Source: a virus (Duplodnaviria; Heunggongvirae; Uroviricota; Caudoviricetes). Taken from it: a stretch of DNA of 55,913 nt. The notes below the pieces were generated by a model. That model ran no database searches and had not been told where the DNA came from. It saw nothing but the letters and a program-made list of their open reading frames with translations. Location of the stretch: the IMG/VR virus record IMGVR_UViG_2778261121_000001, positions 1 to 55,913 of that record, one strand, 5' to 3'. The translations under genes were made by a program, and so were the position numbers. Positions 12,366 to 54,878 of the stretch are shown one piece after another; within the stretch, counting starts at the first letter, position 1; every line of letters starts with the position of its first letter.

Positions 12366-12426
12366 GTGTTTTTCTCTTATCGTTTAGTTACTACATTCTT
12401 ACACAAATTAAGTAAGCATTTACCTA

Positions 12427-17256: not shown

Positions 17257-17401
17257 GTGGACTCCATCCAGTGTCAGAAAGAGTTGCGGCTGGCGATTGC
17301 CAGCCGCCTTTCTCGTTCCATCCTGGAACTGTGTCTTACCGACACATTGTCATCCTGACGCCGATAAGATACATGATTTAAAATGATAGGTAAACACTTA
17401 C

Positions 17402-19590: not shown

Positions 19591-19654
19591 CTTCTTTCTC
19601 GATAGGTAAGTGATTACCTATTTTTGCATTTGATTTTATGTCTGGCAATCAAAT

Positions 19655-24425: not shown

Positions 24426-24595
24426 AAAAACCTCACAAAGATAAGTAATTACTTATTCATCGTGTGAGTTTACATTCATTGAGAGAACAAGACCAGACAG
24501 ATAAAAAAATGGTGGCCATAGGCCACCAAAACGAATAGTCATTCCAGAGTTTTATTACGCATGTTAAATATACACAGATAGATAACTACCTACAA

Positions 24596-29140: not shown

Positions 29141-29174
29141 ATGTTAATAGATAAGCACTTACCTATCAATGAAA

Positions 29175-33718: not shown

Positions 33719-33972
33719 GTGTTTTTCCTTTGTGGTTATTTTGATACAAATTCTAAGAGCAATGAGGAGGTAAACAACTATGCATAACGGTATGTTAGGA
33801 ATGAAACGAGCGCCTTAATATACAAAATTTATAAGTAAGTATATACCTATTTATCGTGGCGCAACTTTGCTTGTCTGTATGACTAAAAATAAGACTGGAT
33901 CACTGTAGAACGCTATGAGAGCTATTTTGAGGGGGCGTAGATTCTATCTACGCCAATATACGATCTGGAGGG

Positions 33973-36417: not shown

Positions 36418-36900
36418 CCAACCACTGTAGTTAGTAGTAAGGCTCACTATCCACTGTAGTGAGCCTTACTTATATCTGTAATTCGCTATCCACTATAGTG
36501 AGTATCGTTATCTGTTGATAACCACTGTAGGCAGTAGAATGCAAATACTGAATCAAATGTTAGTGATCACTAACACTGATGAAACAAGGGCTGCGAGGTT
36601 AGTGGTCACTGGGTATCTTGGAAAATTTACTGTCTATAGTGGTTGTTGTCGCCCTCATCTTTGAGCGTATCCACTGTGGCGAGTGGATATCCACTGAAAA
36701 CAGCAAAGGCTTACTCACCATAGTGGATACCCGCTGGACATCTCACTCCAATACTCACCATAGTGGTTGTTTGATGCGAATGAAAGGCTGTCTACTCGCT
36801 ACAGTGGTTAGCAGATATGTAGGAAGAGAGGACTGCAGACCACAGTGGATAATGAGCTGATACGAATGCGGTGAGCTGGCTACTCACCGCAGTGGTTGGT
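36418..36900. repeat. downstream iteron array (about 11 copies, both orientations)
   Basis: CCACTGTAG/CCACTATAG cores and their reverse complements between the repA stop and the next gene. Confidence 0.7.
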
Positions 36901-36904
36901 GCTA

Positions 36905-37117
36905 TTAGTGTATTTTCTTTAACAGACCCCAAAGTGTTCCGGCTTTTGTAGTCAGTTTTCCTGTTTCTGGATCGTACATACGCCATTCACGCCGCTGGTG
37001 GACGATATACCCATCTTCACGCTCCAGACGCTCAAGAACGCCAGGCTGCTTGAAACCCTTAGCACGCCAGTATCCGCTTGTTTTCTCGATTTCCAGACCT
37101 GCTAGTGTTAATGCCAT
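36905..37117 (-). CDS. hypothetical protein (70 aa)
   Basis: ORF; TAATG overlap with the upstream gene. Confidence 0.4.
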   Translation of the reverse strand: MALTLAGLEIEKTSGYWRAKGFKQPGVLERLEREDGYIVHQRREWRMYDPETGKLTTKAGTLWGLLKKIH

Positions 37118-37452
37118 TATCCAACCTCCTTGCAGTCATCGAAAAGGTAGCTTTGCTGAGAAGCGTGAACGCCATAGAAGCCCTTGTATTTGTTGTATAC
37201 GAAGTGGTCTTCTCCGACGCCGGTTAATTTGCCATTACGGTTTGTGAGATATGGGGATGACAATACTCGATCGTCACGCACAACATAGAACTGGTCGCCG
37301 CTGTCTACGACCATCGCTCCATATGGTGCTTTTATGACGTCGGTAAGAGCGCCATTCTTAACGTCGGCTACAGACATTTCACACTGATAAACAGTGGTGT
37401 CGGCCACAACGATCGAAGAAAGGAACAACAGCGCGAATGGGATGGCCTTCAT
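37117..37452 (-). CDS. secreted protein (111 aa, cleavable signal peptide, two Cys)
   Basis: N-terminal MKAIPFALLFLSSIVVA signal-like segment. Confidence 0.5.
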   Translation of the reverse strand: MKAIPFALLFLSSIVVADTTVYQCEMSVADVKNGALTDVIKAPYGAMVVDSGDQFYVVRDDRVLSSPYLTNRNGKLTGVGEDHFVYNKYKGFYGVHASQQSYLFDDCKEVG

Positions 37453-37628
37453 GCTGCCACCTCTTTGATTACATCAAATGCTGAATTAAATACGAGCACG
37501 ATAGCCAAAGCGTTTATGACTACGTCGTTCACCGGGGAAAAGACTTTACGAATGACACCAGTGAAAATGCAGTCGATGACAAAAGCTATTGACACGATGA
37601 GCAACAAGTATTCAATAAAAATCTTCAT
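37449..37628 (-). CDS. candidate small membrane protein (59 aa)
   Basis: Hand-translated hydrophobic ORF with ATGA overlap to the downstream gene; no clear Shine-Dalgarno. Confidence 0.3.
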   Translation of the reverse strand: MKIFIEYLLLIVSIAFVIDCIFTGVIRKVFSPVNDVVINALAIVLVFNSAFDVIKEVAA

Positions 37629-37667
37629 GATAGGTAGATACTAACTTATATAAATTTTACTGTAAAC

Positions 37668-37943
37668 TCACTCAAAAGTGCTGATGCTTAGAATACGCTC
37701 AAGATGTGCGGCATCTTCATCACTGATTTGTTGAGTCTCTTCTACATACCAACAGTTGCCGTTATGCCAACAAACACCATCATCATCAACCATCACTGAA
37801 TCAGCGTCATGACCTGTATATTCAACGAGAATACGCTGGATCAGCGCGTCAATTTCTTCGTCGTTAAGGCCATCGGCTTTGACGATAAAAAGCGGAAATG
37901 CGTCATAGACAGTGCTGGTAACGATTCGAACTAAAACTCTCAT
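37668..37943 (-). CDS. hypothetical acidic protein (91 aa)
   Basis: ORF in conserved start context. Confidence 0.45.
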   Translation of the reverse strand: MRVLVRIVTSTVYDAFPLFIVKADGLNDEEIDALIQRILVEYTGHDADSVMVDDDGVCWHNGNCWYVEETQQISDEDAAHLERILSISTFE

Positions 37944-37998
37944 GTGTTTTTCCTTTTGTGGTTAGTGTTTACTTATTTTGTTAGTTATGAATAGGCGA

Positions 37999-38424
37999 TC
38001 AATCGTCTTGTTTAGGGAAAAACTGTTCAATAACTCTGTCAACGGCTGTGTCTATATGGAGTAGATGCCACACAACCATATCTTTGCTCCCCATGCCTTG
38101 TGTGAATATCACGTCATACTTACGCCATGCGCAGTGGAACCAATATGCTGAGTTATCAATTGGTAAATCCTCTCCCGCCTCTTTGAAGTATTTCAGCAGC
38201 ATTGCTTGCTCTGCCGTTGGCGTTGGACCTATTTCCTGAGCGTACATACGGATGAATCGCTGCCAGTCTGTCTCGTCGGGGGTTGGATCTGGTGGGGTCA
38301 TTTCTGCGATAGCGTTTCGTAGCTGATGCGCCCAATCAGGTTCAGGAAAGCCTTTTGCTACTTCATCATCAATAACATCCAGAGCCACGTTTGCGGCATC
38401 GTAGAGTTTCTTAATAGCTGTCAT
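37999..38424 (-). CDS. hypothetical protein (141 aa)
   Basis: ORF; 5'-leader motif at 38441-38460. Confidence 0.45.
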   Translation of the reverse strand: MTAIKKLYDAANVALDVIDDEVAKGFPEPDWAHQLRNAIAEMTPPDPTPDETDWQRFIRMYAQEIGPTPTAEQAMLLKYFKEAGEDLPIDNSAYWFHCAWRKYDVIFTQGMGSKDMVVWHLLHIDTAVDRVIEQFFPKQDD

Positions 38425-38474: not shown

Positions 38475-38498
38475 AAAAAAGGCGTCCAACTGGACGCC
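38475..38498 (-). terminator. intrinsic terminator downstream of the SPFH gene
   Basis: GGCGTCCA-GT-TGGACGCC followed by UUUUUU on the minus strand. Confidence 0.6.
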
Positions 38499-38516
38499 TG
38501 ATCTTCTTAAGTAGAG

Positions 38517-39581: not shown

Positions 39582-39609
39582 TGATAAGTAAGCACTTATA
39601 TATTTTCAA
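39582..39609 (-). promoter_or_regulatory. sigma70-like promoter TTGAAA-N17-TATCAT overlapped by the palindromic operator-like motif
   Basis: -35 at 39604-39609 and -10 at 39582-39587 on the minus strand; TAAGTGCTTACTTA lies in the spacer. Confidence 0.45.
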
Positions 39610-39643: not shown

Positions 39644-41983
39644 TTACTCTTCTACTGACTCGGTGGGATTGTCTTTTGATCTCCGGTCGTCGATTGCCTG
39701 TAAAGCCGCAATGATTTCAGCTAGTGGCTTCTCCCGATACATCTCGACGATCTGTGATTTGGTGTATTTCTTGTCACCAATTTCTACTCGACCGCTGGCG
39801 TTCTTTGGCAGGTATCCTTCTTCCAGCATGTACTCGACGAGCGATTCGATAACGTCGAGGCCACGAGTAGGATCGAAGTAGAATTTCCAGGTGCATTTGC
39901 CATACGGTGGTGCAACTTTGTTTTTGATGCATTCTGCGCCTACGTCCTGGCCGATCTTCTCTTTACCATCCTTCATCACCGATGCACCAAGACGGATACG
40001 TACAGAAGCGTAGAACTTCGGTGAATCTCCACCTGGCGACGTAGTAGGGTCGCCAAACATTACACCGATTTTTGTGCGAACCTGATTCAAGAAGATGATG
40101 CAGGCGTTGTATTTGCGTGCCCACAAAGCCAGAGTAGGGAAGTTCGCACTCGTCGCACGAGCCAGTGCCGTATTGTCGTTCATGTTTAGCTGATCTTTGT
40201 CTTTGGCTGTGCCTTCAGCCATCTTTTCGAACTTCTCGGCTTTGGAGTTCGGAACCATAGACGCAAGAGAGTCAGCCACGATACAGATAGGTGCTGATTC
40301 GGGGATAAGCTCTTCATCACGAACCAATTTAAGTATTGTGCCGATCAACTCTACAGAGTCTTCGAAGGTATCTGGCTGCTTGTACACCCACTGACCGTCA
40401 TCCTCATCTGCGTTCAGGCCATTGGCTACAGCCAGGCCAACGTCAAAACTGTTTTCATGATCGAGGAATACCGCCAGACCATCTTGTTTTTGAGCGGAGA
40501 TCATCGCTGCTGTTGCAAGGAATGTGTTGTGGCTGATAATCCCGTTAGACCAGAAAGAGTGTGTTTCCGGCATCGCTACGTCGAACGTTGGTGCTTCACC
40601 TTCCTCAATAGCCACGACTTCGTCGTAGAACAAGTTAGAGCCAATTACCGCTGCCAGTTGTGCAAACAGATGCTCGTTAAAACGATTCTTTCTGCCAATG
40701 AAGGAGACATAGATTTCTCGCAGTTTGTCTATTCCGACACGATCGCCGCGGCCAATAACGTGGTCTACCAGAGCGTAGTCTTCACGGGTGGTCTTGGTGA
40801 GCGACTCGTAGAGTGATTTCACTAAGCCGCTGATGTGCGGAACATAGCCTGAGTAAGTGCGGTCAAAACCAATGTCCCGTTTGGTTGCCACTGATAAACG
40901 TGCCGGAGATTCGAAACCAATCGTTGACAGAAAAAGGTCGTAATTAGAGCCACTGAATGACAGCCGGTAATATGTATTTTCATAACCCGCGACGTGTTTT
41001 TCAGAGATAGTTGACGTAATCCCCAGATTCAGGAGCATGAGGCGAATTTGCTGTAGCAGCAGCCCACTCGCGCTCACAACCTCAATGCAGCGACCATCAT
41101 TGACGTGGCATTCCAGCTCAAAGTAGCCGCGAAGGAATGCAATTTGAGCCTCGCTATTGGCGCGACGCACACTCAACGGAACCTGCTTGCCAGCAGCTTT
41201 CTCATACTCCAGACCATATTCTTTAAAAAGCAGCGAACGCACCTCTTTGCTAAACAGCACATGGTCTTCCGAGCCGTTATGTTTTCTCGTAACTGGCATC
41301 TTGTCTGATACCAGCGAAATGAGGCGGTAGTACTCATCCTTGATGAAAGGATCTGTGTTAGAAAAATTCACTGAATTTTCAGAGGCCACGTATCCGTCAG
41401 CAATTAAATAGCCCATCAGTTTTGCGATATTGGCATCCAGGTGCTGATCGCCGAATTGATGTGTGCCAACCATTGAAGGAATCGTGTCGCCTACACTGAT
41501 TTTTTCAGCATGTCGCCAGACGACATTACCTAAGTCGTCAACCACACGGATTGGGTGACGGAACGTAGCCTCGATATAACCGCCTGATGCCAGCTTAATA
41601 CGCTTGAATTTGCGATGGTTGTTCCATGTCAGGTGTGAGGTCTTCTCTATCACGCCATTTTCATTGATGAGTCCAACGTTATGCTCTACATCGCGAGTAG
41701 TGCATGTCGCTTTGTACCCTTCAATCTCAAACAACTCTTTCACTGTTACCATTCCACGCTCCGTCAGCAGCATGGTGTCTGCGGTAACACATTTCCCCGC
41801 ACTTGGAGGACCGAATACTTCGACGATACGACCACATGGGAAGCCGCCATCGTAACGACCGGAAATAGCTTTGTTTAACGGAGGAAAGCCTGTGTCAATC
41901 CAATGAGTTACTTTCTGAATTTCGTCGTTGCTACCGATTTTCTTTTTCAGAGCAAGTGCCAGTGCGGATTTTCCTTTTGCCAT
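39644..41983 (-). CDS. RecA-like recombinase interrupted by an intein
   Basis: Exteins (64 + 293 aa) give a RecA-sized protein with Walker A GPPSAGK|TFLAT split by the intein. Confidence 0.8.
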   Translation of the reverse strand: MAKGKSALALALKKKIGSNDEIQKVTHWIDTGFPPLNKAISGRYDGGFPCGRIVEVFGPPSAGKCVTADTMLLTERGMVTVKELFEIEGYKATCTTRDVEHNVGLINENGVIEKTSHLTWNNHRKFKRIKLASGGYIEATFRHPIRVVDDLGNVVWRHAEKISVGDTIPSMVGTHQFGDQHLDANIAKLMGYLIADGYVASENSVNFSNTDPFIKDEYYRLISLVSDKMPVTRKHNGSEDHVLFSKEVRSLLFKEYGLEYEKAAGKQVPLSVRRANSEAQIAFLRGYFELECHVNDGRCIEVVSASGLLLQQIRLMLLNLGITSTISEKHVAGYENTYYRLSFSGSNYDLFLSTIGFESPARLSVATKRDIGFDRTYSGYVPHISGLVKSLYESLTKTTREDYALVDHVIGRGDRVGIDKLREIYVSFIGRKNRFNEHLFAQLAAVIGSNLFYDEVVAIEEGEAPTFDVAMPETHSFWSNGIISHNTFLATAAMISAQKQDGLAVFLDHENSFDVGLAVANGLNADEDDGQWVYKQPDTFEDSVELIGTILKLVRDEELIPESAPICIVADSLASMVPNSKAEKFEKMAEGTAKDKDQLNMNDNTALARATSANFPTLALWARKYNACIIFLNQVRTKIGVMFGDPTTSPGGDSPKFYASVRIRLGASVMKDGKEKIGQDVGAECIKNKVAPPYGKCTWKFYFDPTRGLDVIESLVEYMLEEGYLPKNASGRVEIGDKKYTKSQIVEMYREKPLAEIIAALQAIDDRRSKDNPTESVEE
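40526..41791 (-). mobile_element. intein with LAGLIDADG homing-endonuclease domain (422 aa)
   Basis: Starts with Cys after GPPSAGK, ends with HN before Thr; LAGLIDADG-like blocks (LMGYLIADGYV, FLRGYFELECHV). Confidence 0.7.
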
Positions 41984-44285: not shown

Positions 44286-44402
44286 GTGTTTCTCCTTGTT
44301 GTGATTTGGCCGATGGCGCTATGCGCGTTGGGCTTTCGTTCATTCGTGGCTCTTTCGAACTGTTAAATAATAGATCAGTACTTACTTATTATCTATCAAA
44401 AA

Positions 44403-50627: not shown

Positions 50628-50722
50628 GCGTTTTTCCTTTGTTCTCTAATGAGCGTTCAACTTCTTATATAAATATACCATTAACTATCGTAAGTGGTTA
50701 CTTATCATTAAGGCTGTTTTAT

Positions 50723-53142: not shown

Positions 53143-53393
53143 TCAATCAATCCATTCTAACTTATACTATGGTAAGGAATACTACTAAAATTTGTATCAA
53201 TACTGAATACATCTATATCAGATGCAAGTTAATTTTCTTACCTATTTGGGGCTAGTTTTTCTCCATGCATGGACCTTTGCTCGGTCTTACAAGTGCCTGC
53301 CGAAAAAAATGATAATAGCTTTACAACCCTAACCTTTGATGTAATATCGGTAAGCACTTACCAGAGAGAATTAAACGCGCAAAGGTTGTAACA

Positions 53394-53780
53394 ATGTCTG
53401 ACAACAAGATTGAATTTATAGAAAGTCGCTATGCTGCTTTTATCGCAGGGCTGATTGAATCCTCACCTATGAGTCAGGCACAAATAGCCCGACTTATTGG
53501 TTATAAAAATGCCAACAACCTTTCTTTAATTAAAAGTGGCAAAATTCCTTTGCCTATCGATAAGGTTCGTCCGTTGGCGCTGGCGCTGGGTATTGAGCCA
53601 AGTCGTCTTATGATGATGGTGCTGGAAGAACGCCAACCTGAACTCGCAGCATTTTTATACAAAGAAGGCACCGCTCCTCTTAACGAGGACGAAAAACAGG
53701 TTCTTGCTGCATATAACGAGCGATTCGGTAAAGAGAAAGGCGCATCACAAAAGGTTGTTGAGGCCATAAAGTCTCTATGA
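53394..53780 (+). CDS. helix-turn-helix (XRE-family) transcriptional regulator, candidate repressor
   Basis: HTH MSQAQIARLIGYKNANNLSLIKSG; GGTAAGCACTTACC palindrome at 53349-53362 upstream. Confidence 0.65.
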   Translation: MSDNKIEFIESRYAAFIAGLIESSPMSQAQIARLIGYKNANNLSLIKSGKIPLPIDKVRPLALALGIEPSRLMMMVLEERQPELAAFLYKEGTAPLNEDEKQVLAAYNERFGKEKGASQKVVEAIKSL

Positions 53781-54878
53781 AAAATTTACACGAATAAGCT
53801 CTGTTGATAGACGATCTCCCTTGAATTTGTGGTCAATTTCGTCTAAATCCGGTTGCTCTACGATTGATGCGATGTACGTCGAGAAACTTTCTAAGGCGTC
53901 TCGCATCTCGTCCATATAATCGTGTCGGTCGTAGACCCGATCTATCCCCTCAAGACTGTGGTTCATGATTTTGCGTGATACCTCCTGGCTTATGCCTAAT
54001 GCTGGGAAGTAACTACGCGCAGTACGGCGCAAATCTCGGGGTGTAAATGGCTCAAGCTCCATCAGTTCTGGTCGTTCCAGAATACGACGTAATGCCTGGG
54101 CTATTGCCACTTTAGACATAGGAAGGTCTTTCCCGATTTTTTTATTCGAAGGCACGAGCCACTGGCTGCCTTTACCGTATTCGAACAACTCTTCAATACA
54201 TGTGCGCATTAATGTGCTTAAAGGCAGCGAATGCTCACGGGCAGATTTGTTCCTCTTGCCTTGATTCCAAACCCCACGCTTAAGATTGAACTCACTTTTT
54301 TTAGCCCGCAGTACTTCGTCAGGTCGTCTTGCGGATACAAGACACAGCCTGGCCGCCCATTTTGTACCAGCGCACACATTGAAGTAGTCCCATATATTCC
54401 AGAACACCCATACCTCTGCGTCGGTCAGCTTCCGCTCGCGAGGTGTTGGCTTTGCGCCACCGGCAACTTTGTTTAGTGACATATCATTTAACGGTGACAC
54501 ATCGATCATCCCCTGGAAGGCACACCAGCTAAGGAACTGCTTCATCAGAGAGAAAACGCGGCGGCCCATAACAATTTTGCCATCCAGTATTAGAGGGTTG
54601 ACCAGTTGGTTCACCATGAACCTATTAATGTCACTTACTTTTACATCGGCAATGTGCGGCAAAACATGTATCAAAATACAATGAACAGCGATCTCTGGCC
54701 GACGTCTTGTTATCAGCAAAGATAAGCGAGTGAATAACATGAATGCGTCCGAGAATCTCATGTCATTGCTGACCTGGGAGATCATAACGGCCTGCATTTG
54801 AGATGCTCTTTCGAGATACTCAATCGCCTCTTTTGAGGTGTTCTCCGCAGCGCGTGCTCTGTCAAAGCTATTTTTCAT
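53775..54878 (-). CDS. tyrosine site-specific recombinase (integrase/Cre-like)
   Basis: C-terminal catalytic signature R...HSLR...Y (PRDLRRT, NHSLEG, YDRHDY). Confidence 0.8.
   Translation of the reverse strand: MKNSFDRARAAENTSKEAIEYLERASQMQAVMISQVSNDMRFSDAFMLFTRLSLLITRRRPEIAVHCILIHVLPHIADVKVSDINRFMVNQLVNPLILDGKIVMGRRVFSLMKQFLSWCAFQGMIDVSPLNDMSLNKVAGGAKPTPRERKLTDAEVWVFWNIWDYFNVCAGTKWAARLCLVSARRPDEVLRAKKSEFNLKRGVWNQGKRNKSAREHSLPLSTLMRTCIEELFEYGKGSQWLVPSNKKIGKDLPMSKVAIAQALRRILERPELMELEPFTPRDLRRTARSYFPALGISQEVSRKIMNHSLEGIDRVYDRHDYMDEMRDALESFSTYIASIVEQPDLDEIDHKFKGDRLSTELIRVNFS

What the first reader, a model, noticed from the sequence alone, without database searches (positions are those of the whole stretch)
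36905..37628. Membrane–secreted–cytoplasmic three-gene operon next to the incA-like iterons
A 59-aa membrane peptide, a 111-aa signal-peptide protein with two cysteines, and a 70-aa soluble protein are linked by ATGA and TAATG overlaps. None has a recognisable function. The position beside the replicon is where phage-plasmids often carry exclusion or addiction functions.
Basis: seen in the sequence. Interest (0 to 1): 0.4.

Follow-up and report, generated by a model that had tools for sequence, protein, structure and literature searches.

The report
Phage-plasmid envelope operon beside replicon
Three tiny overlapping genes next to the replication origin of an SSU5-type plasmid-prophage are real and conserved (a membrane hairpin peptide, an exported disulfide-stapled beta-barrel and a phage P1 Cra-like protein), but their function is untested; the best guess is a phage accessory module acting on the cell envelope.

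Summary
On the minus strand (37628 to 36905) three ORFs of 59, 111 and 70 aa overlap by ATGA and TAATG. The genes and both overlaps are conserved in SSU5-type phage-plasmids (phages SSU5 and Cyrano, Y. pestis pMT1, Klebsiella plasmids, 210 of 5,426 complete E. coli genomes). All three evolve under purifying selection (median dN/dS 0.14, 0.12, 0.09).

- **Gene 1** is a two-pass membrane hairpin.
- **Gene 2** has a canonical Sec signal peptide and two invariant cysteines, and is predicted to be a small beta-barrel. Its family (phrog_2077, no Pfam) also occurs as an accessory gene in unrelated phages.
- **Gene 3** is a homologue of phage P1 Cra, a non-essential protein of unknown function. So "nothing recognisable" is not quite right.

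A conserved promoter-like element sits directly before gene 1 and overlaps a palindromic motif found across the whole genome. The trio is therefore probably its own transcription unit, reading into the iterons.

I found no homology to any exclusion, toxin-antitoxin, lysozyme-inhibitor or defence family. My best guess, at about one in three, is a phage accessory envelope module working like T4 Imm/Sp. Addiction is unlikely. Function remains untested and interest is moderate to low.

The parts
37629..37666 (-). Promoter-like element directly upstream of g59. The -35 is TTTACA (37666-37661) and the -10 is TAGTAT (37643-37638). It overlaps an 18-nt motif, AGTTAGTATCTACCTATC (37629-37646; palindromic core 37631-37644), that abuts the ATG. 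There is no Shine-Dalgarno sequence, so the mRNA may be leaderless or have a very short leader.
   Evidence: - Consensus scan.
- The element is almost invariant in 8 diverged relatives whose synonymous sites are saturated.
- The motif is kept in remote loci L012 and L017, where a 15-20 nt leader with a Shine-Dalgarno sequence follows.
- The motif recurs in intergenic regions genome-wide.
37449..37628 (-). g59: a 59-aa two-pass inner-membrane hairpin peptide. TM1 covers about residues 3-26, followed by a basic loop (R27 K28 ... P32), then TM2 at about residues 36-54. The predicted topology is N-out/C-out.
   Evidence: - ORF and hydropathy.
- Conserved, including where it is left unannotated (Klebsiella, Citrobacter).
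- dN/dS 0.14.
- phrog_2535, function unknown.
- Remote counterparts of 45 and 51 aa share the loop motif (K/R)(K/R)-(A/V)-F-x-P.
- The topology is inferred from the positive-inside rule.
37117..37452 (-). g111: a 111-aa precursor of an exported protein of about 94 aa. The signal peptide is residues 1-17 (nt 37402-37452), with a VVA|DT cleavage motif. The protein is predicted to be an all-beta small barrel with invariant C24 and C107.
   Evidence: - Sequence.
- Family alignment: C24, F55, S66, P67 and C107 are invariant in 18 members, down to 24% identity.
- AlphaFold model: pLDDT 83.5, ten strands, residues 1-15 disordered.
- phrog_2077 for all 18 members, no Pfam family.
- dN/dS 0.12.
36905..37117 (-). 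g70: a 70-aa basic cytoplasmic protein of the phage P1 Cra family.
   Evidence: - tblastn to P1/P7 cra: 43.5% identity over 62 aa, E 9e-5.
- phrog_804, E 4.6e-34.
- A profile search recovers only SSU5-like and P1-like elements.
- Invariant G-Y-W-R-x-K-G-F motif.
- dN/dS 0.09, and 96% identity to SSU5.
- AlphaFold model: pLDDT 83, helix-helix, four strands, helix.
36419..36900 (.). incA-like iteron array between the 3' ends of repA and g70. The trio's transcript would run into it, because no terminator-like site was found between them.
   Evidence: Repeat families D2-D7, D10 and D11. No terminator-like site on the minus strand between 36300 and 36905. Iterons begin 2-5 nt after the g70 stop in IncFIB-type relatives.
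37668..37943 (-). g91: an acidic 91-aa protein (phrog_2209) immediately upstream. It is conserved with the trio in all SSU5-like lineages. A degenerate copy of the palindromic motif precedes it at 37962-37975.
37999..38424 (-). DUF7238 protein (141 aa), the first gene after the terminator. It is part of the conserved five-gene block DUF7238 - g91 - g59 - g111 - g70.
   Evidence: Pfam PF23885, E 4.4e-38. The same order is found in remote loci L012 and L017.
38480..38499 (-). Intrinsic-terminator-like hairpin (AGGCGTCCAGTTGGACGCCT followed by TTTTTT) after the SPFH gene. It marks the upstream boundary of the block.

Best explanation
The three ORFs are real, co-transcribed and translationally coupled genes of an SSU5-family plasmid-prophage. 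They form the last transcription unit before the replicon.

- g59 is a two-pass inner-membrane hairpin with both ends in the periplasm.
- g111 is exported by the Sec pathway. Its signal peptide is cleaved after VVA, and it folds in the periplasm into a beta-barrel of about 94 residues. An invariant disulfide (C24-C107) links its first and last strands.
- g70 is a small basic cytoplasmic protein of the P1 Cra family.

Working model: g59 and g111 are made in fixed proportion and act together at the periplasmic face of the inner membrane as a phage accessory (moron-type) envelope module. The most likely role is to block a periplasmic step of infection by another phage, either DNA entry or the wall-piercing enzyme. 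This is the logic of T4 Imm (membrane) plus Sp (periplasm). Alternatively the module neutralises some other periplasm-acting factor. Cra is a separate, more conserved cytoplasmic function carried on the same message.

The unit is preceded by a palindromic operator-like motif shared by most transcription units of this phage family. It therefore seems to be switched with the phage programme, not expressed as a plasmid-maintenance function.

What is shown (computationally): the gene structure, the coupling, purifying selection, the export signal, the invariant cysteines, the family distribution and the Cra homology.

What is inferred: export, the disulfide, the topology, a g59-g111 partnership, the timing of expression and the biological role.
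For: **Gene reality and coupling**
- ORFs and overlaps.
- Conserved in 8 diverged and 2 remote relatives.
- dN/dS 0.14, 0.12 and 0.09.

**Own transcription unit**
- A TTTACA-N17-TAGTAT element abuts the g59 ATG. It is nearly invariant across relatives.
- A terminator lies upstream of the block.

**Export**
- Canonical n/h/c regions and A-x-A-type cleavage sites occur in every family member.
- The AlphaFold model leaves residues 1-15 unstructured.

**Disulfide-stapled barrel**
- C24 and C107 are invariant in 18 members, down to 24% identity. They lie on the first and last predicted strands.

**Accessory (moron) character of the barrel family**
- It is the second gene, after a 76-aa ORF, of the early-left operon beside cro in Pantoea phage PdC23. 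There it is followed by a 46-aa membrane peptide.
- It sits beside Arc/antirepressor genes in the tail regions of Mu/P2-like prophages.
- It follows a P4-type primase.
- It sits in an E217-like tail region.
- BFVD structural neighbours are uncharacterised phage lipoproteins and secreted proteins.

**Link between the membrane peptide and the barrel**
- A small two-pass peptide with the same loop motif precedes the barrel, translationally coupled or within 8 nt of it, in three deep SSU5-like lineages.

**Accessory status**
- The module is fused and broken in S. Typhi pHCM2.
- It is replaced by a type I R-M system in pRHB03-C12_2.
- P1 cra is non-essential (PMC10695390).
Against: - There is no experimental evidence of any kind, and no expression data were found.
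- Only 1 of the 5 AlphaFold models was confident.
- No sequence relation was found to Imm, Sp, Cor/Bor, SieA/B, MliC/PliC or any PADLOC model.
- Outside SSU5-like elements the barrel usually lacks a membrane-peptide neighbour. The partnership is therefore not universal.
- g59 and g111 do not evolve faster than the cytoplasmic neighbours g91 and DUF7238 (69-75% identity to SSU5). There is no arms-race signature.
- The motif before g59 also precedes structural and DNA-metabolism genes. Expression in the lysogen is therefore not implied.
- The role of g70 in the model is unexplained.
Confidence: 0.35

Rival explanations
1. Three unrelated small accessory genes are simply packed together, as is normal in phage genomes. 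The overlaps reflect compaction, and there is no joint mechanism. g111 acts alone in the periplasm, g59 alone in the membrane and Cra alone in the cytoplasm.
For: - Barrel homologues occur without a membrane peptide or a Cra homologue in most non-SSU5 contexts.
- Cra occurs in P1 without the other two.
- g70 evolves far more slowly than g59 and g111.
- Short overlaps are common throughout this genome.
Against: - g59, g111 and g70 stay contiguous, in the same order and coupled, in three lineages whose barrel proteins are only 28-31% identical.
- PdC23 also pairs the barrel with a small membrane peptide.
Confidence: 0.2
2. A periplasmic protein inhibitor for lysogenic conversion. g111 binds and neutralises a peptidoglycan-degrading enzyme (lysozyme, a T6SS amidase or transpeptidase effector, or a phage tail lysin), as MliC, PliC, ACP or T6SS immunity proteins do. 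g59 acts as a membrane tether.
For: - One remote homologue lies in a prophage island beside a Tlde1-domain protein and other exported small proteins.
- The small, disulfide-bonded periplasmic barrel architecture fits.
Against: - No member hits Pfam MliC or any inhibitor family at E<=1.
- The PliC/MliC chains in the PDB are not matched by the family profile at E<=10.
- From memory, MliC/PliC carry the motifs SxSGAxY and YxxxTKG. These are absent from the family alignment.
Confidence: 0.15
3. A lysis-timing accessory. g59 is a holin/antiholin-like membrane peptide and g111 a periplasmic sensor or regulator (compare T4 RI/RIII lysis inhibition). They are expressed in the lytic programme.
For: - g59 is a short two-pass peptide with polar residues inside its hydrophobic segments (E6, D19, N39, N48, D52).
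- The motif before it is shared with lytic units, including the holin and tail genes.
Against: - The complete lysis cassette (holin, endolysin, Rz/Rz1) lies elsewhere in the closely related phage Cyrano.
- There is no holin family hit.
- The inferred N-out/C-out topology is, from memory, opposite to that of two-pass class II holins.
- In PdC23 the barrel lies in the early-left operon.
Confidence: 0.1
4. A replicon-linked control function. Transcription from the g59 promoter runs through the incA-like iterons, convergent with repA, and/or Cra binds DNA. Either effect would modulate copy number or dimer resolution.
For: - There is no terminator between g70 and the iterons, and the last iteron ends 5 nt from the g70 stop.
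- The trio keeps this convergent position next to three different replicon types.
- The Cra family is restricted to two plasmid-prophage families. In P1 it sits beside lox-cre.
- Cra is basic.
Against: - An exported barrel and a membrane peptide cannot act on DNA.
- P1 cra is far from the P1 replicon and is non-essential.
- Persistence across replicon swaps argues for inherited synteny rather than co-adaptation.
Confidence: 0.1
5. An addiction (toxin-antitoxin) module. g59 is a membrane-damaging toxin, neutralised by one of the other two products.
For: - Small hydrophobic peptides next to plasmid replicons are often type I toxins.
- g59 lacks a Shine-Dalgarno sequence.
Against: - There is no toxin-antitoxin, PADLOC, Pfam or NCBIfam hit.
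- No Rfam antisense RNA was found.
- Cyrano has recognised TA pairs elsewhere (HicAB, KacT, RelE/ParE).
- The module is broken in pHCM2, which is nonetheless widespread. It has been replaced in other plasmids.
- The barrel family occurs in non-plasmid phages.
Confidence: 0.06

Closest known systems
Phage P1 Cra (cre-associated protein, P1_gp002; phrog_804)
   Same: g70 is a true homologue.
- 43.5% identity over 62 of 70 residues.
- A shared invariant G-Y-W-R-A-K-G-F motif.
- Similar length (70 versus 73 aa).
- Both are encoded by enterobacterial plasmid-prophages.
   Different: - In P1 the gene lies between lox and cre. Here it lies at the end of the membrane-peptide/barrel unit, beside the iterons, and the only integrase gene is about 16 kb away.
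- Cra has no known function, so membership explains nothing about mechanism.
Phage T4 superinfection exclusion pair Imm (small inner-membrane protein) and Sp/Spackle (small signal-peptide periplasmic protein that inhibits the gp5 tail lysozyme); from established literature, recalled from memory
   Same: The cellular logic matches. A very small polytopic inner-membrane protein is paired with a small Sec-exported periplasmic protein. Both are phage-encoded, non-structural and non-essential.
   Different: - There is no sequence relation. Pfam Imm_superinfect is not hit and the family profile matches no PDB chain of that kind.
- Spackle is, from memory, helical, whereas g111 is predicted all-beta.
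- The T4 genes are not adjacent, whereas here the two are translationally coupled.
- The function here is untested.
Periplasmic proteinaceous lysozyme inhibitors MliC/PliC and Neisseria ACP
   Different: - No sequence membership.
- The characteristic inhibitor loop motifs are absent.
- Many unrelated barrels (Cap15, YceI, OMP fragments, designed barrels) score the same or better.
Phage morons for the cell envelope (lambda Bor, phi80/N15 Cor, T5 Llp, P22 SieA); from established literature
   Same: Small, non-essential, envelope-targeted products carried in accessory positions of temperate phage genomes. Members of the barrel family sit in such positions.
   Different: - Bor, Cor and Llp are lipoproteins. 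g111 has a signal peptidase I site and no lipobox.
- There is no homology.
Dispersed repressor sites: mycobacteriophage L5 'stoperators' and phage P1 C1 operators (closest analogue for the motif in front of g59); from established literature
   Same: A short conserved site is repeated in tens of copies, almost only in short intergenic gaps, before early and late units alike.
   Different: - From memory, the L5 and P1 sites are asymmetric. This one is an inverted repeat, TAAGTA-NN-TACYTA.
- The binding protein and the effect are unknown. It could equally be a promoter element.

Membership tests
P1 Cra family (phrog_804) | Significant full-length sequence similarity to P1 Cra | tested here: met
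   - tblastn gives 43.5% identity over residues 8-69, E 9e-5, to P1, P7 and relatives.
- phrog_804, E 4.6e-34.
- A profile of SSU5-type and P1-type sequences recovers P1-type proteins at E 1e-26.
- 12 columns are invariant across both types.
P1 Cra family (phrog_804) | Association with a cre-type recombinase and lox site (the origin of the name) | tested here: not met
   g70 is flanked by g111 and the iterons. The only integrase gene of the element is about 16 kb away (window 53775..54878). The association is therefore a P1 peculiarity, not a family trait.
phrog_2077 exported barrel family (uncharacterised) | Profile match, N-terminal signal peptide, one Cys just after it and one in a C-terminal F-(D/E)-x-C motif | tested here: met
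   g111 matches with E 8.5e-64, and all 18 aligned members match. C24, F55, S66, P67 and C107 are invariant.
MliC/PliC lysozyme inhibitors (Pfam MliC) | Pfam profile match, or a profile match to solved PliC/MliC chains | tested here: not met
   No hit at E<=1 for g111 or any of the 18 relatives. The family profile finds no PliC/MliC chain in the PDB at E<=10.
MliC/PliC lysozyme inhibitors (Pfam MliC) | Eight-stranded periplasmic beta-barrel fold | tested here: inconclusive
MliC/PliC lysozyme inhibitors (Pfam MliC) | Inhibition of c-type lysozyme | not testable with these tools
   Needs purified protein and an enzyme assay.
T4 Imm (Pfam Imm_superinfect) and T4 Sp/Spackle | Sequence or profile similarity to Imm (for g59) or Spackle (for g111) | tested here: not met
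T4 Imm (Pfam Imm_superinfect) and T4 Sp/Spackle | Blocks DNA entry or the tail lysozyme of a superinfecting phage | not testable with these tools
   Needs phage challenge, adsorption and DNA-entry assays.
Toxin-antitoxin / known anti-phage defence systems | Match to any TA or defence protein model | tested here: not met
   There are no PADLOC hits for the trio or its two upstream neighbours, and no relevant Pfam or NCBIfam hits.
Holins / lysis cassette | Holin family match and adjacency to endolysin and spanin genes | tested here: not met
   There is no holin family hit. In phage Cyrano the holin, endolysin and Rz/Rz1 genes lie about 32 kb away.
Lipoprotein morons (Bor/Cor/Llp type) | Lipobox with Cys at +1 of the mature protein | tested here: not met
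   The predicted cleavage is VVA|DT, and the first Cys lies 7 residues into the mature protein in a V-Y-Q-C context.

The most novel reading that the evidence does not exclude
g59 and g111 are the founding pair of an unrecognised two-component envelope system. A membrane hairpin presents or regulates a disulfide-stapled periplasmic beta-barrel (phrog_2077) that blocks a periplasmic step of phage infection or another envelope attack. The barrel family would then be a new class of phage-borne exclusion or protection protein. It is spread among phage-plasmids (about 4% of complete E. coli genomes, Y. pestis pMT1), lambdoid phages and Mu/P2-like prophages. Its expression in SSU5-type elements would be wired into a genome-wide network of palindromic operator sites.
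Probability: 0.2. Interest if true: 0.6.

Novelty: new variant of a known kind. Interest (0 to 1): 0.35.

Why it matters
SSU5-type phage-plasmids are common in clinical Enterobacteriaceae. The trio is in 210 of 5,426 complete E. coli genomes and in 787 PLSDB plasmids, including Y. pestis pMT1 and Klebsiella plasmids. These elements also carry resistance genes.

A conserved exported protein and its membrane partner could determine which other phages can infect these strains. That matters for phage therapy and for plasmid ecology.

The work also gives P1 Cra, unexplained since the 1980s, a second genomic context. Its family is limited to plasmid-prophages.

A by-product is a dispersed palindromic motif that looks like the main regulatory signal of this phage family. 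It gives a direct handle for finding their master regulator.

If the trio turns out to have no envelope phenotype, it is simply one more set of conserved hypothetical phage genes.

Tried and rejected
1. **Is the 76-aa protein coupled to the barrel gene in phage PdC23 a Cra homologue?** It shares the MAL... start and the ...LLKKVH end. Rejected: BLASTP aligns only 6 residues, and a Cra HMM does not hit it.
3. **g111 as PQQ-type propeller blades.** The whole-sequence E of 2.6e-4 to designed and natural propellers comes from summing repeats that are each non-significant (i-E>=30). This is a motif-level resemblance only.
5. **Small RNA or antisense regulator in the region.** Rfam gave nothing relevant.
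6. **Searches that failed.** A genome-contig scan with the full family alignment failed for lack of a conserved stretch. The afdb50 fold library was unavailable.
7. **Literature.** No paper describes these genes, SSU5 regulation or a Cra function. Two papers I wanted were not held.
8. **Arms-race signature.** g59 and g111 are no more divergent than the cytoplasmic neighbours g91 and DUF7238.
Full report
**Where the window comes from.** The region is 97.6% identical to Escherichia phage Cyrano and 76% identical to Salmonella phage SSU5. It matches 474-787 plasmids of Escherichia, Klebsiella, Enterobacter, Yersinia (pMT1), Salmonella (pHCM2), Citrobacter and Cronobacter. The window is therefore part of an SSU5-type phage-plasmid. 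The three-gene stretch is present in 210 of 5,426 complete E. coli genomes, always on plasmids of about 106-110 kb and never on a chromosome.

**The observation.** Three ORFs lie on the minus strand:
- g59, at 37449..37628;
- g111, at 37117..37452;
- g70, at 36905..37117.

The junctions are GCAGCATGAAG (ATGA, 4-nt overlap) and GGATAATGGC (TAATG, 1-nt overlap).

g59 is very hydrophobic (GRAVY 1.55). It has two hydrophobic segments separated by a basic loop (IRKVFSPVND).

g111 begins MKAIPFALLFLSSIVVA|DT. This shows a charged n-region, a 14-residue hydrophobic core and small residues at -3 and -1. Its only cysteines are C24 and C107.

g70 is basic (pI 9.6) and has no hydrophobic segment.

RepA-type iterons flank repA. 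The downstream array (36419-36900) ends 5 nt from the g70 stop. The description is confirmed in every detail.

**Are they genes?**
- The same three ORFs and the same overlaps are found in SSU5, Enterobacter, Y. pestis, Klebsiella, Citrobacter and Cronobacter plasmids. This includes two records where the small ORF is not annotated.
- Median pairwise dN/dS is 0.14 (g59), 0.12 (g111) and 0.09 (g70), with synonymous sites close to saturation.
- In two much more distant SSU5-like contigs the barrel protein is only 28-31% identical. The order there is still DUF7238, an 89-aa protein, a small two-pass peptide of 45 or 51 aa, the exported protein, then a 70-aa Cra-like protein.
- The small peptides share little with g59 beyond the architecture and the loop motif (K/R)(K/R)-(A/V)-F-x-P.

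**Transcription unit.** A strong terminator-like hairpin follows the SPFH gene at 38499..38480. Downstream of it lie the DUF7238 gene, g91 and the trio.

The 39-nt gap before g59 holds TTTACA-N17-TAGTAT. The gap is almost invariant across eight relatives whose coding third positions are saturated. The -10-like hexamer ends 9 nt before the ATG and there is no Shine-Dalgarno sequence. The message may therefore have little or no leader. In the remote loci the same element is followed by a 15-20 nt leader with a Shine-Dalgarno sequence.

No terminator-like site lies between g70 and the iterons.

I conclude that the trio is probably a transcription unit of its own inside a conserved five-gene block, and that its transcript runs into the iteron array. 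This rests on sequence signals only.

**A motif shared with the rest of the genome.** The 18 nt abutting the g59 ATG (AGTTAGTATCTACCTATC) recur at three other places in the window, against 0.03 expected. The core is an inverted repeat, TAAGTA-NN-TACYTA.
- In the whole Cyrano genome it occurs 25 times with at most one mismatch. Of these, 23 are intergenic although 87% of the genome is coding, and 1.25 are expected by chance.
- With at most two mismatches it occurs 49 times, of which 45 are intergenic, against 15.8 expected.
- The ten window copies with at most one mismatch are all intergenic.
- The sites precede structural, lysis, DNA-metabolism and partition genes alike, on either strand.
- A degenerate copy lies before g91, and another lies 34 nt before a putative repressor gene.
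- Orthologous sites are retained in SSU5, pMT1 and the remote contigs. The motif is absent from unrelated phages carrying the barrel gene.

This looks like the operator of a dimeric regulator, or a family-specific promoter element. For the trio it means regulation in common with most phage units, rather than constitutive plasmid-type expression.

**The exported protein.** Nothing in Pfam, NCBIfam or PADLOC matches it. It belongs to phrog_2077, function unknown.

A word-seeded search of 5.8 billion proteins found only SSU5-like relatives. An exhaustive profile search of 1.84 billion representatives found only 27 proteins. About a dozen of these are full-length relatives of 112-118 aa at 24-32% identity. 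All have a signal peptide, a Cys a few residues after it, an S-P motif and a C-terminal F-(D/E)-x-C.

AlphaFold gives an all-beta protein of ten strands with pLDDT 83.5 and a disordered signal peptide. Only one of the five models was confident.

- then outer-membrane, YceI, designed and lipocalin-like barrels;

Foldseek against viral models finds uncharacterised phage lipoproteins and secreted proteins (TM 0.6-0.74). The two invariant cysteines sit on the first and last predicted strands. I infer a disulfide that closes the barrel, but I could not check the geometry.

**Where the barrel family lives.** Besides SSU5-like elements, it occurs in these places:
- In Pantoea phage PdC23 and its relatives it is the second gene of the leftward early operon next to cro. 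It is coupled to a 76-98 aa soluble protein, and in PdC23 it is followed by a 46-aa membrane peptide.
- In the tail regions of Mu/P2-like prophages it sits next to Arc/antirepressor genes. In one case it is beside a Tlde1-domain protein and other exported proteins.
- It follows a P4-type primase.
- It sits in an E217-like tail region.

These are typical accessory ("moron") positions.

**The Cra-like protein.** g70 matches P1, P7 and related cra genes at 43.5% identity and belongs to phrog_804. SSU5 and Cyrano already annotate it as Cre-associated/Cra.

A profile search returns only SSU5-like and P1-like elements. NCBI often mislabels the P1-type proteins as "creatininase".

P1 cra lies between lox and cre and is non-essential for plaque formation (PMC10695390). 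Here no recombinase is nearby. g70 is far more conserved (96% to SSU5) than g59 (69%) or g111 (74%). g91 and DUF7238 are at 74-75%, and RepA and SPFH at 92-94%.

**Dispensability and synteny.** In S. Typhi pHCM2 a deletion between short GAMV repeats fuses residues 1-34 of g59 to residues 45-111 of g111. This removes the second membrane segment, the signal peptide and C24. In pRHB03-C12_2 the trio is replaced by a type I restriction system. The trio keeps its convergent position next to IncFIB RepA, RepB-type and other replicons. Its adjacency to the replicon is therefore inherited synteny at a recombination-prone boundary, not evidence of a replicon function.

**Interpretation.**
- With high confidence (about 0.85): these are three real, coupled genes encoding a membrane hairpin, an exported beta-rich protein and a Cra-family protein.
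- With moderate confidence (about 0.6): g59 and g111 work together.
- With low confidence (about 0.35 overall): the pair is an envelope-acting accessory module, functionally like T4 Imm/Sp or a periplasmic inhibitor. Cra would be a separate passenger or regulator.

Addiction, lysis control and replicon control are less likely, for the reasons given under the rival explanations. No defining feature of any characterised family was met, except membership of the uncharacterised Cra and phrog_2077 families.

**Verdict.** The finding is real and well described, and the genes are already in public records as hypothetical proteins. The new points are:
- the Cra identity of g70;
- the wider phage distribution and predicted fold of the exported protein;
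- the deep conservation of the membrane-peptide/barrel/Cra order;
- the regulatory motif.

Without a phenotype, interest is moderate to low (0.35). The dispersed palindromic motif may be the more productive lead.

Noticed in passing
Window copies at 12413-12426, 17387-17400, 19607-19620, 24442-24455, 29152-29165, 33836-33849, 37631-37644, 39585-39598, 44375-44388 and 50691-50704. Degenerate copies at 37962-37975 and 53347-53360. Also found across the whole phage Cyrano genome (L027, L026, L028).: A dispersed inverted-repeat motif, TAAGTA-NN-TACYTA (extended form ATAGATAAGTA-N2-TACTTATCTAT).
- In Cyrano there are 25 sites with at most 1 mismatch, against 1.25 expected. Of these, 23 are intergenic.
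- With at most 2 mismatches there are 49 sites, 45 of them intergenic.
- The sites precede early, late, lysis and partition genes, on either strand.
- Orthologous sites are kept in SSU5, pMT1 and very distant relatives.
- It looks like the operator network of a master regulator (compare L5 stoperators or P1 C1 operators) or a family-specific promoter element.
- I found no description of it in the literature.
   Followed up: partly
L006 2750-3055 (S. Typhi pHCM2); protein P0016: A natural in-frame fusion of g59 residues 1-34 to g111 residues 45-111 (101 aa). It was apparently made by deletion between short GAMV-coding repeats. It is recorded on 1000 contigs (the count's cap). It removes the signal peptide and the first invariant cysteine, so the module is probably inactive in pHCM2.
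   Followed up: partly
window 39644-41983 (-): The RecA-like gene is 779 aa here and in Cyrano and Enterobacter, against 358 aa in SSU5, pMT1 and pHCM2. It carries an intein with a LAGLIDADG homing endonuclease at about residues 73-486 (Pfam Intein_splicing, LAGLIDADG_3).
   Followed up: partly
L011 1-4740 (E. coli plasmid pRHB03-C12_2); also hit H117: In some SSU5-type plasmids the trio is missing. Only about 110-150 bp next to the iterons remain. In pRHB03-C12_2 a type I restriction enzyme gene takes the trio's place. The boundary beside the replicon behaves as an accessory-gene hotspot.
   Followed up: no
window 37449-37628; L005 and L007; E. coli RefSeq hits: Annotation gaps and errors.
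- The 59-aa gene is unannotated in the Klebsiella and Citrobacter records.
- Only two features are listed under the E. coli RefSeq matches, so one of the three genes, probably the 59-aa one, goes unannotated there.
- NCBI names many P1-type Cra proteins "creatininase", apparently a mis-expansion of "Cra".
   Followed up: no
L009 4305-5813 (E. coli plasmid pSLy3): A group II intron reverse transcriptase/maturase is inserted about 750 bp beyond g91, where the DUF7238 gene normally lies. This plasmid also carries a RepB-type replicon in place of IncFIB RepA.
   Followed up: no
L015 3676-5711 and L016 (a chromosomal prophage island): A remote barrel homologue sits in a cluster of envelope-directed small genes. 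The cluster comprises a Tlde1-domain (L,D-transpeptidase effector-like) protein, a membrane-anchored 104-aa protein and a second exported 117-aa protein. It lies just before the tape-measure and baseplate genes.
   Followed up: no
window 36905-37117; PDB profile search: The Cra family profile weakly matches mitochondrial ribosomal protein bL36 (E 0.03). Some distant Cra members carry a C-x-C ... C pattern at the aligned positions. The match is not significant and the predicted fold does not support it.
   Followed up: partly
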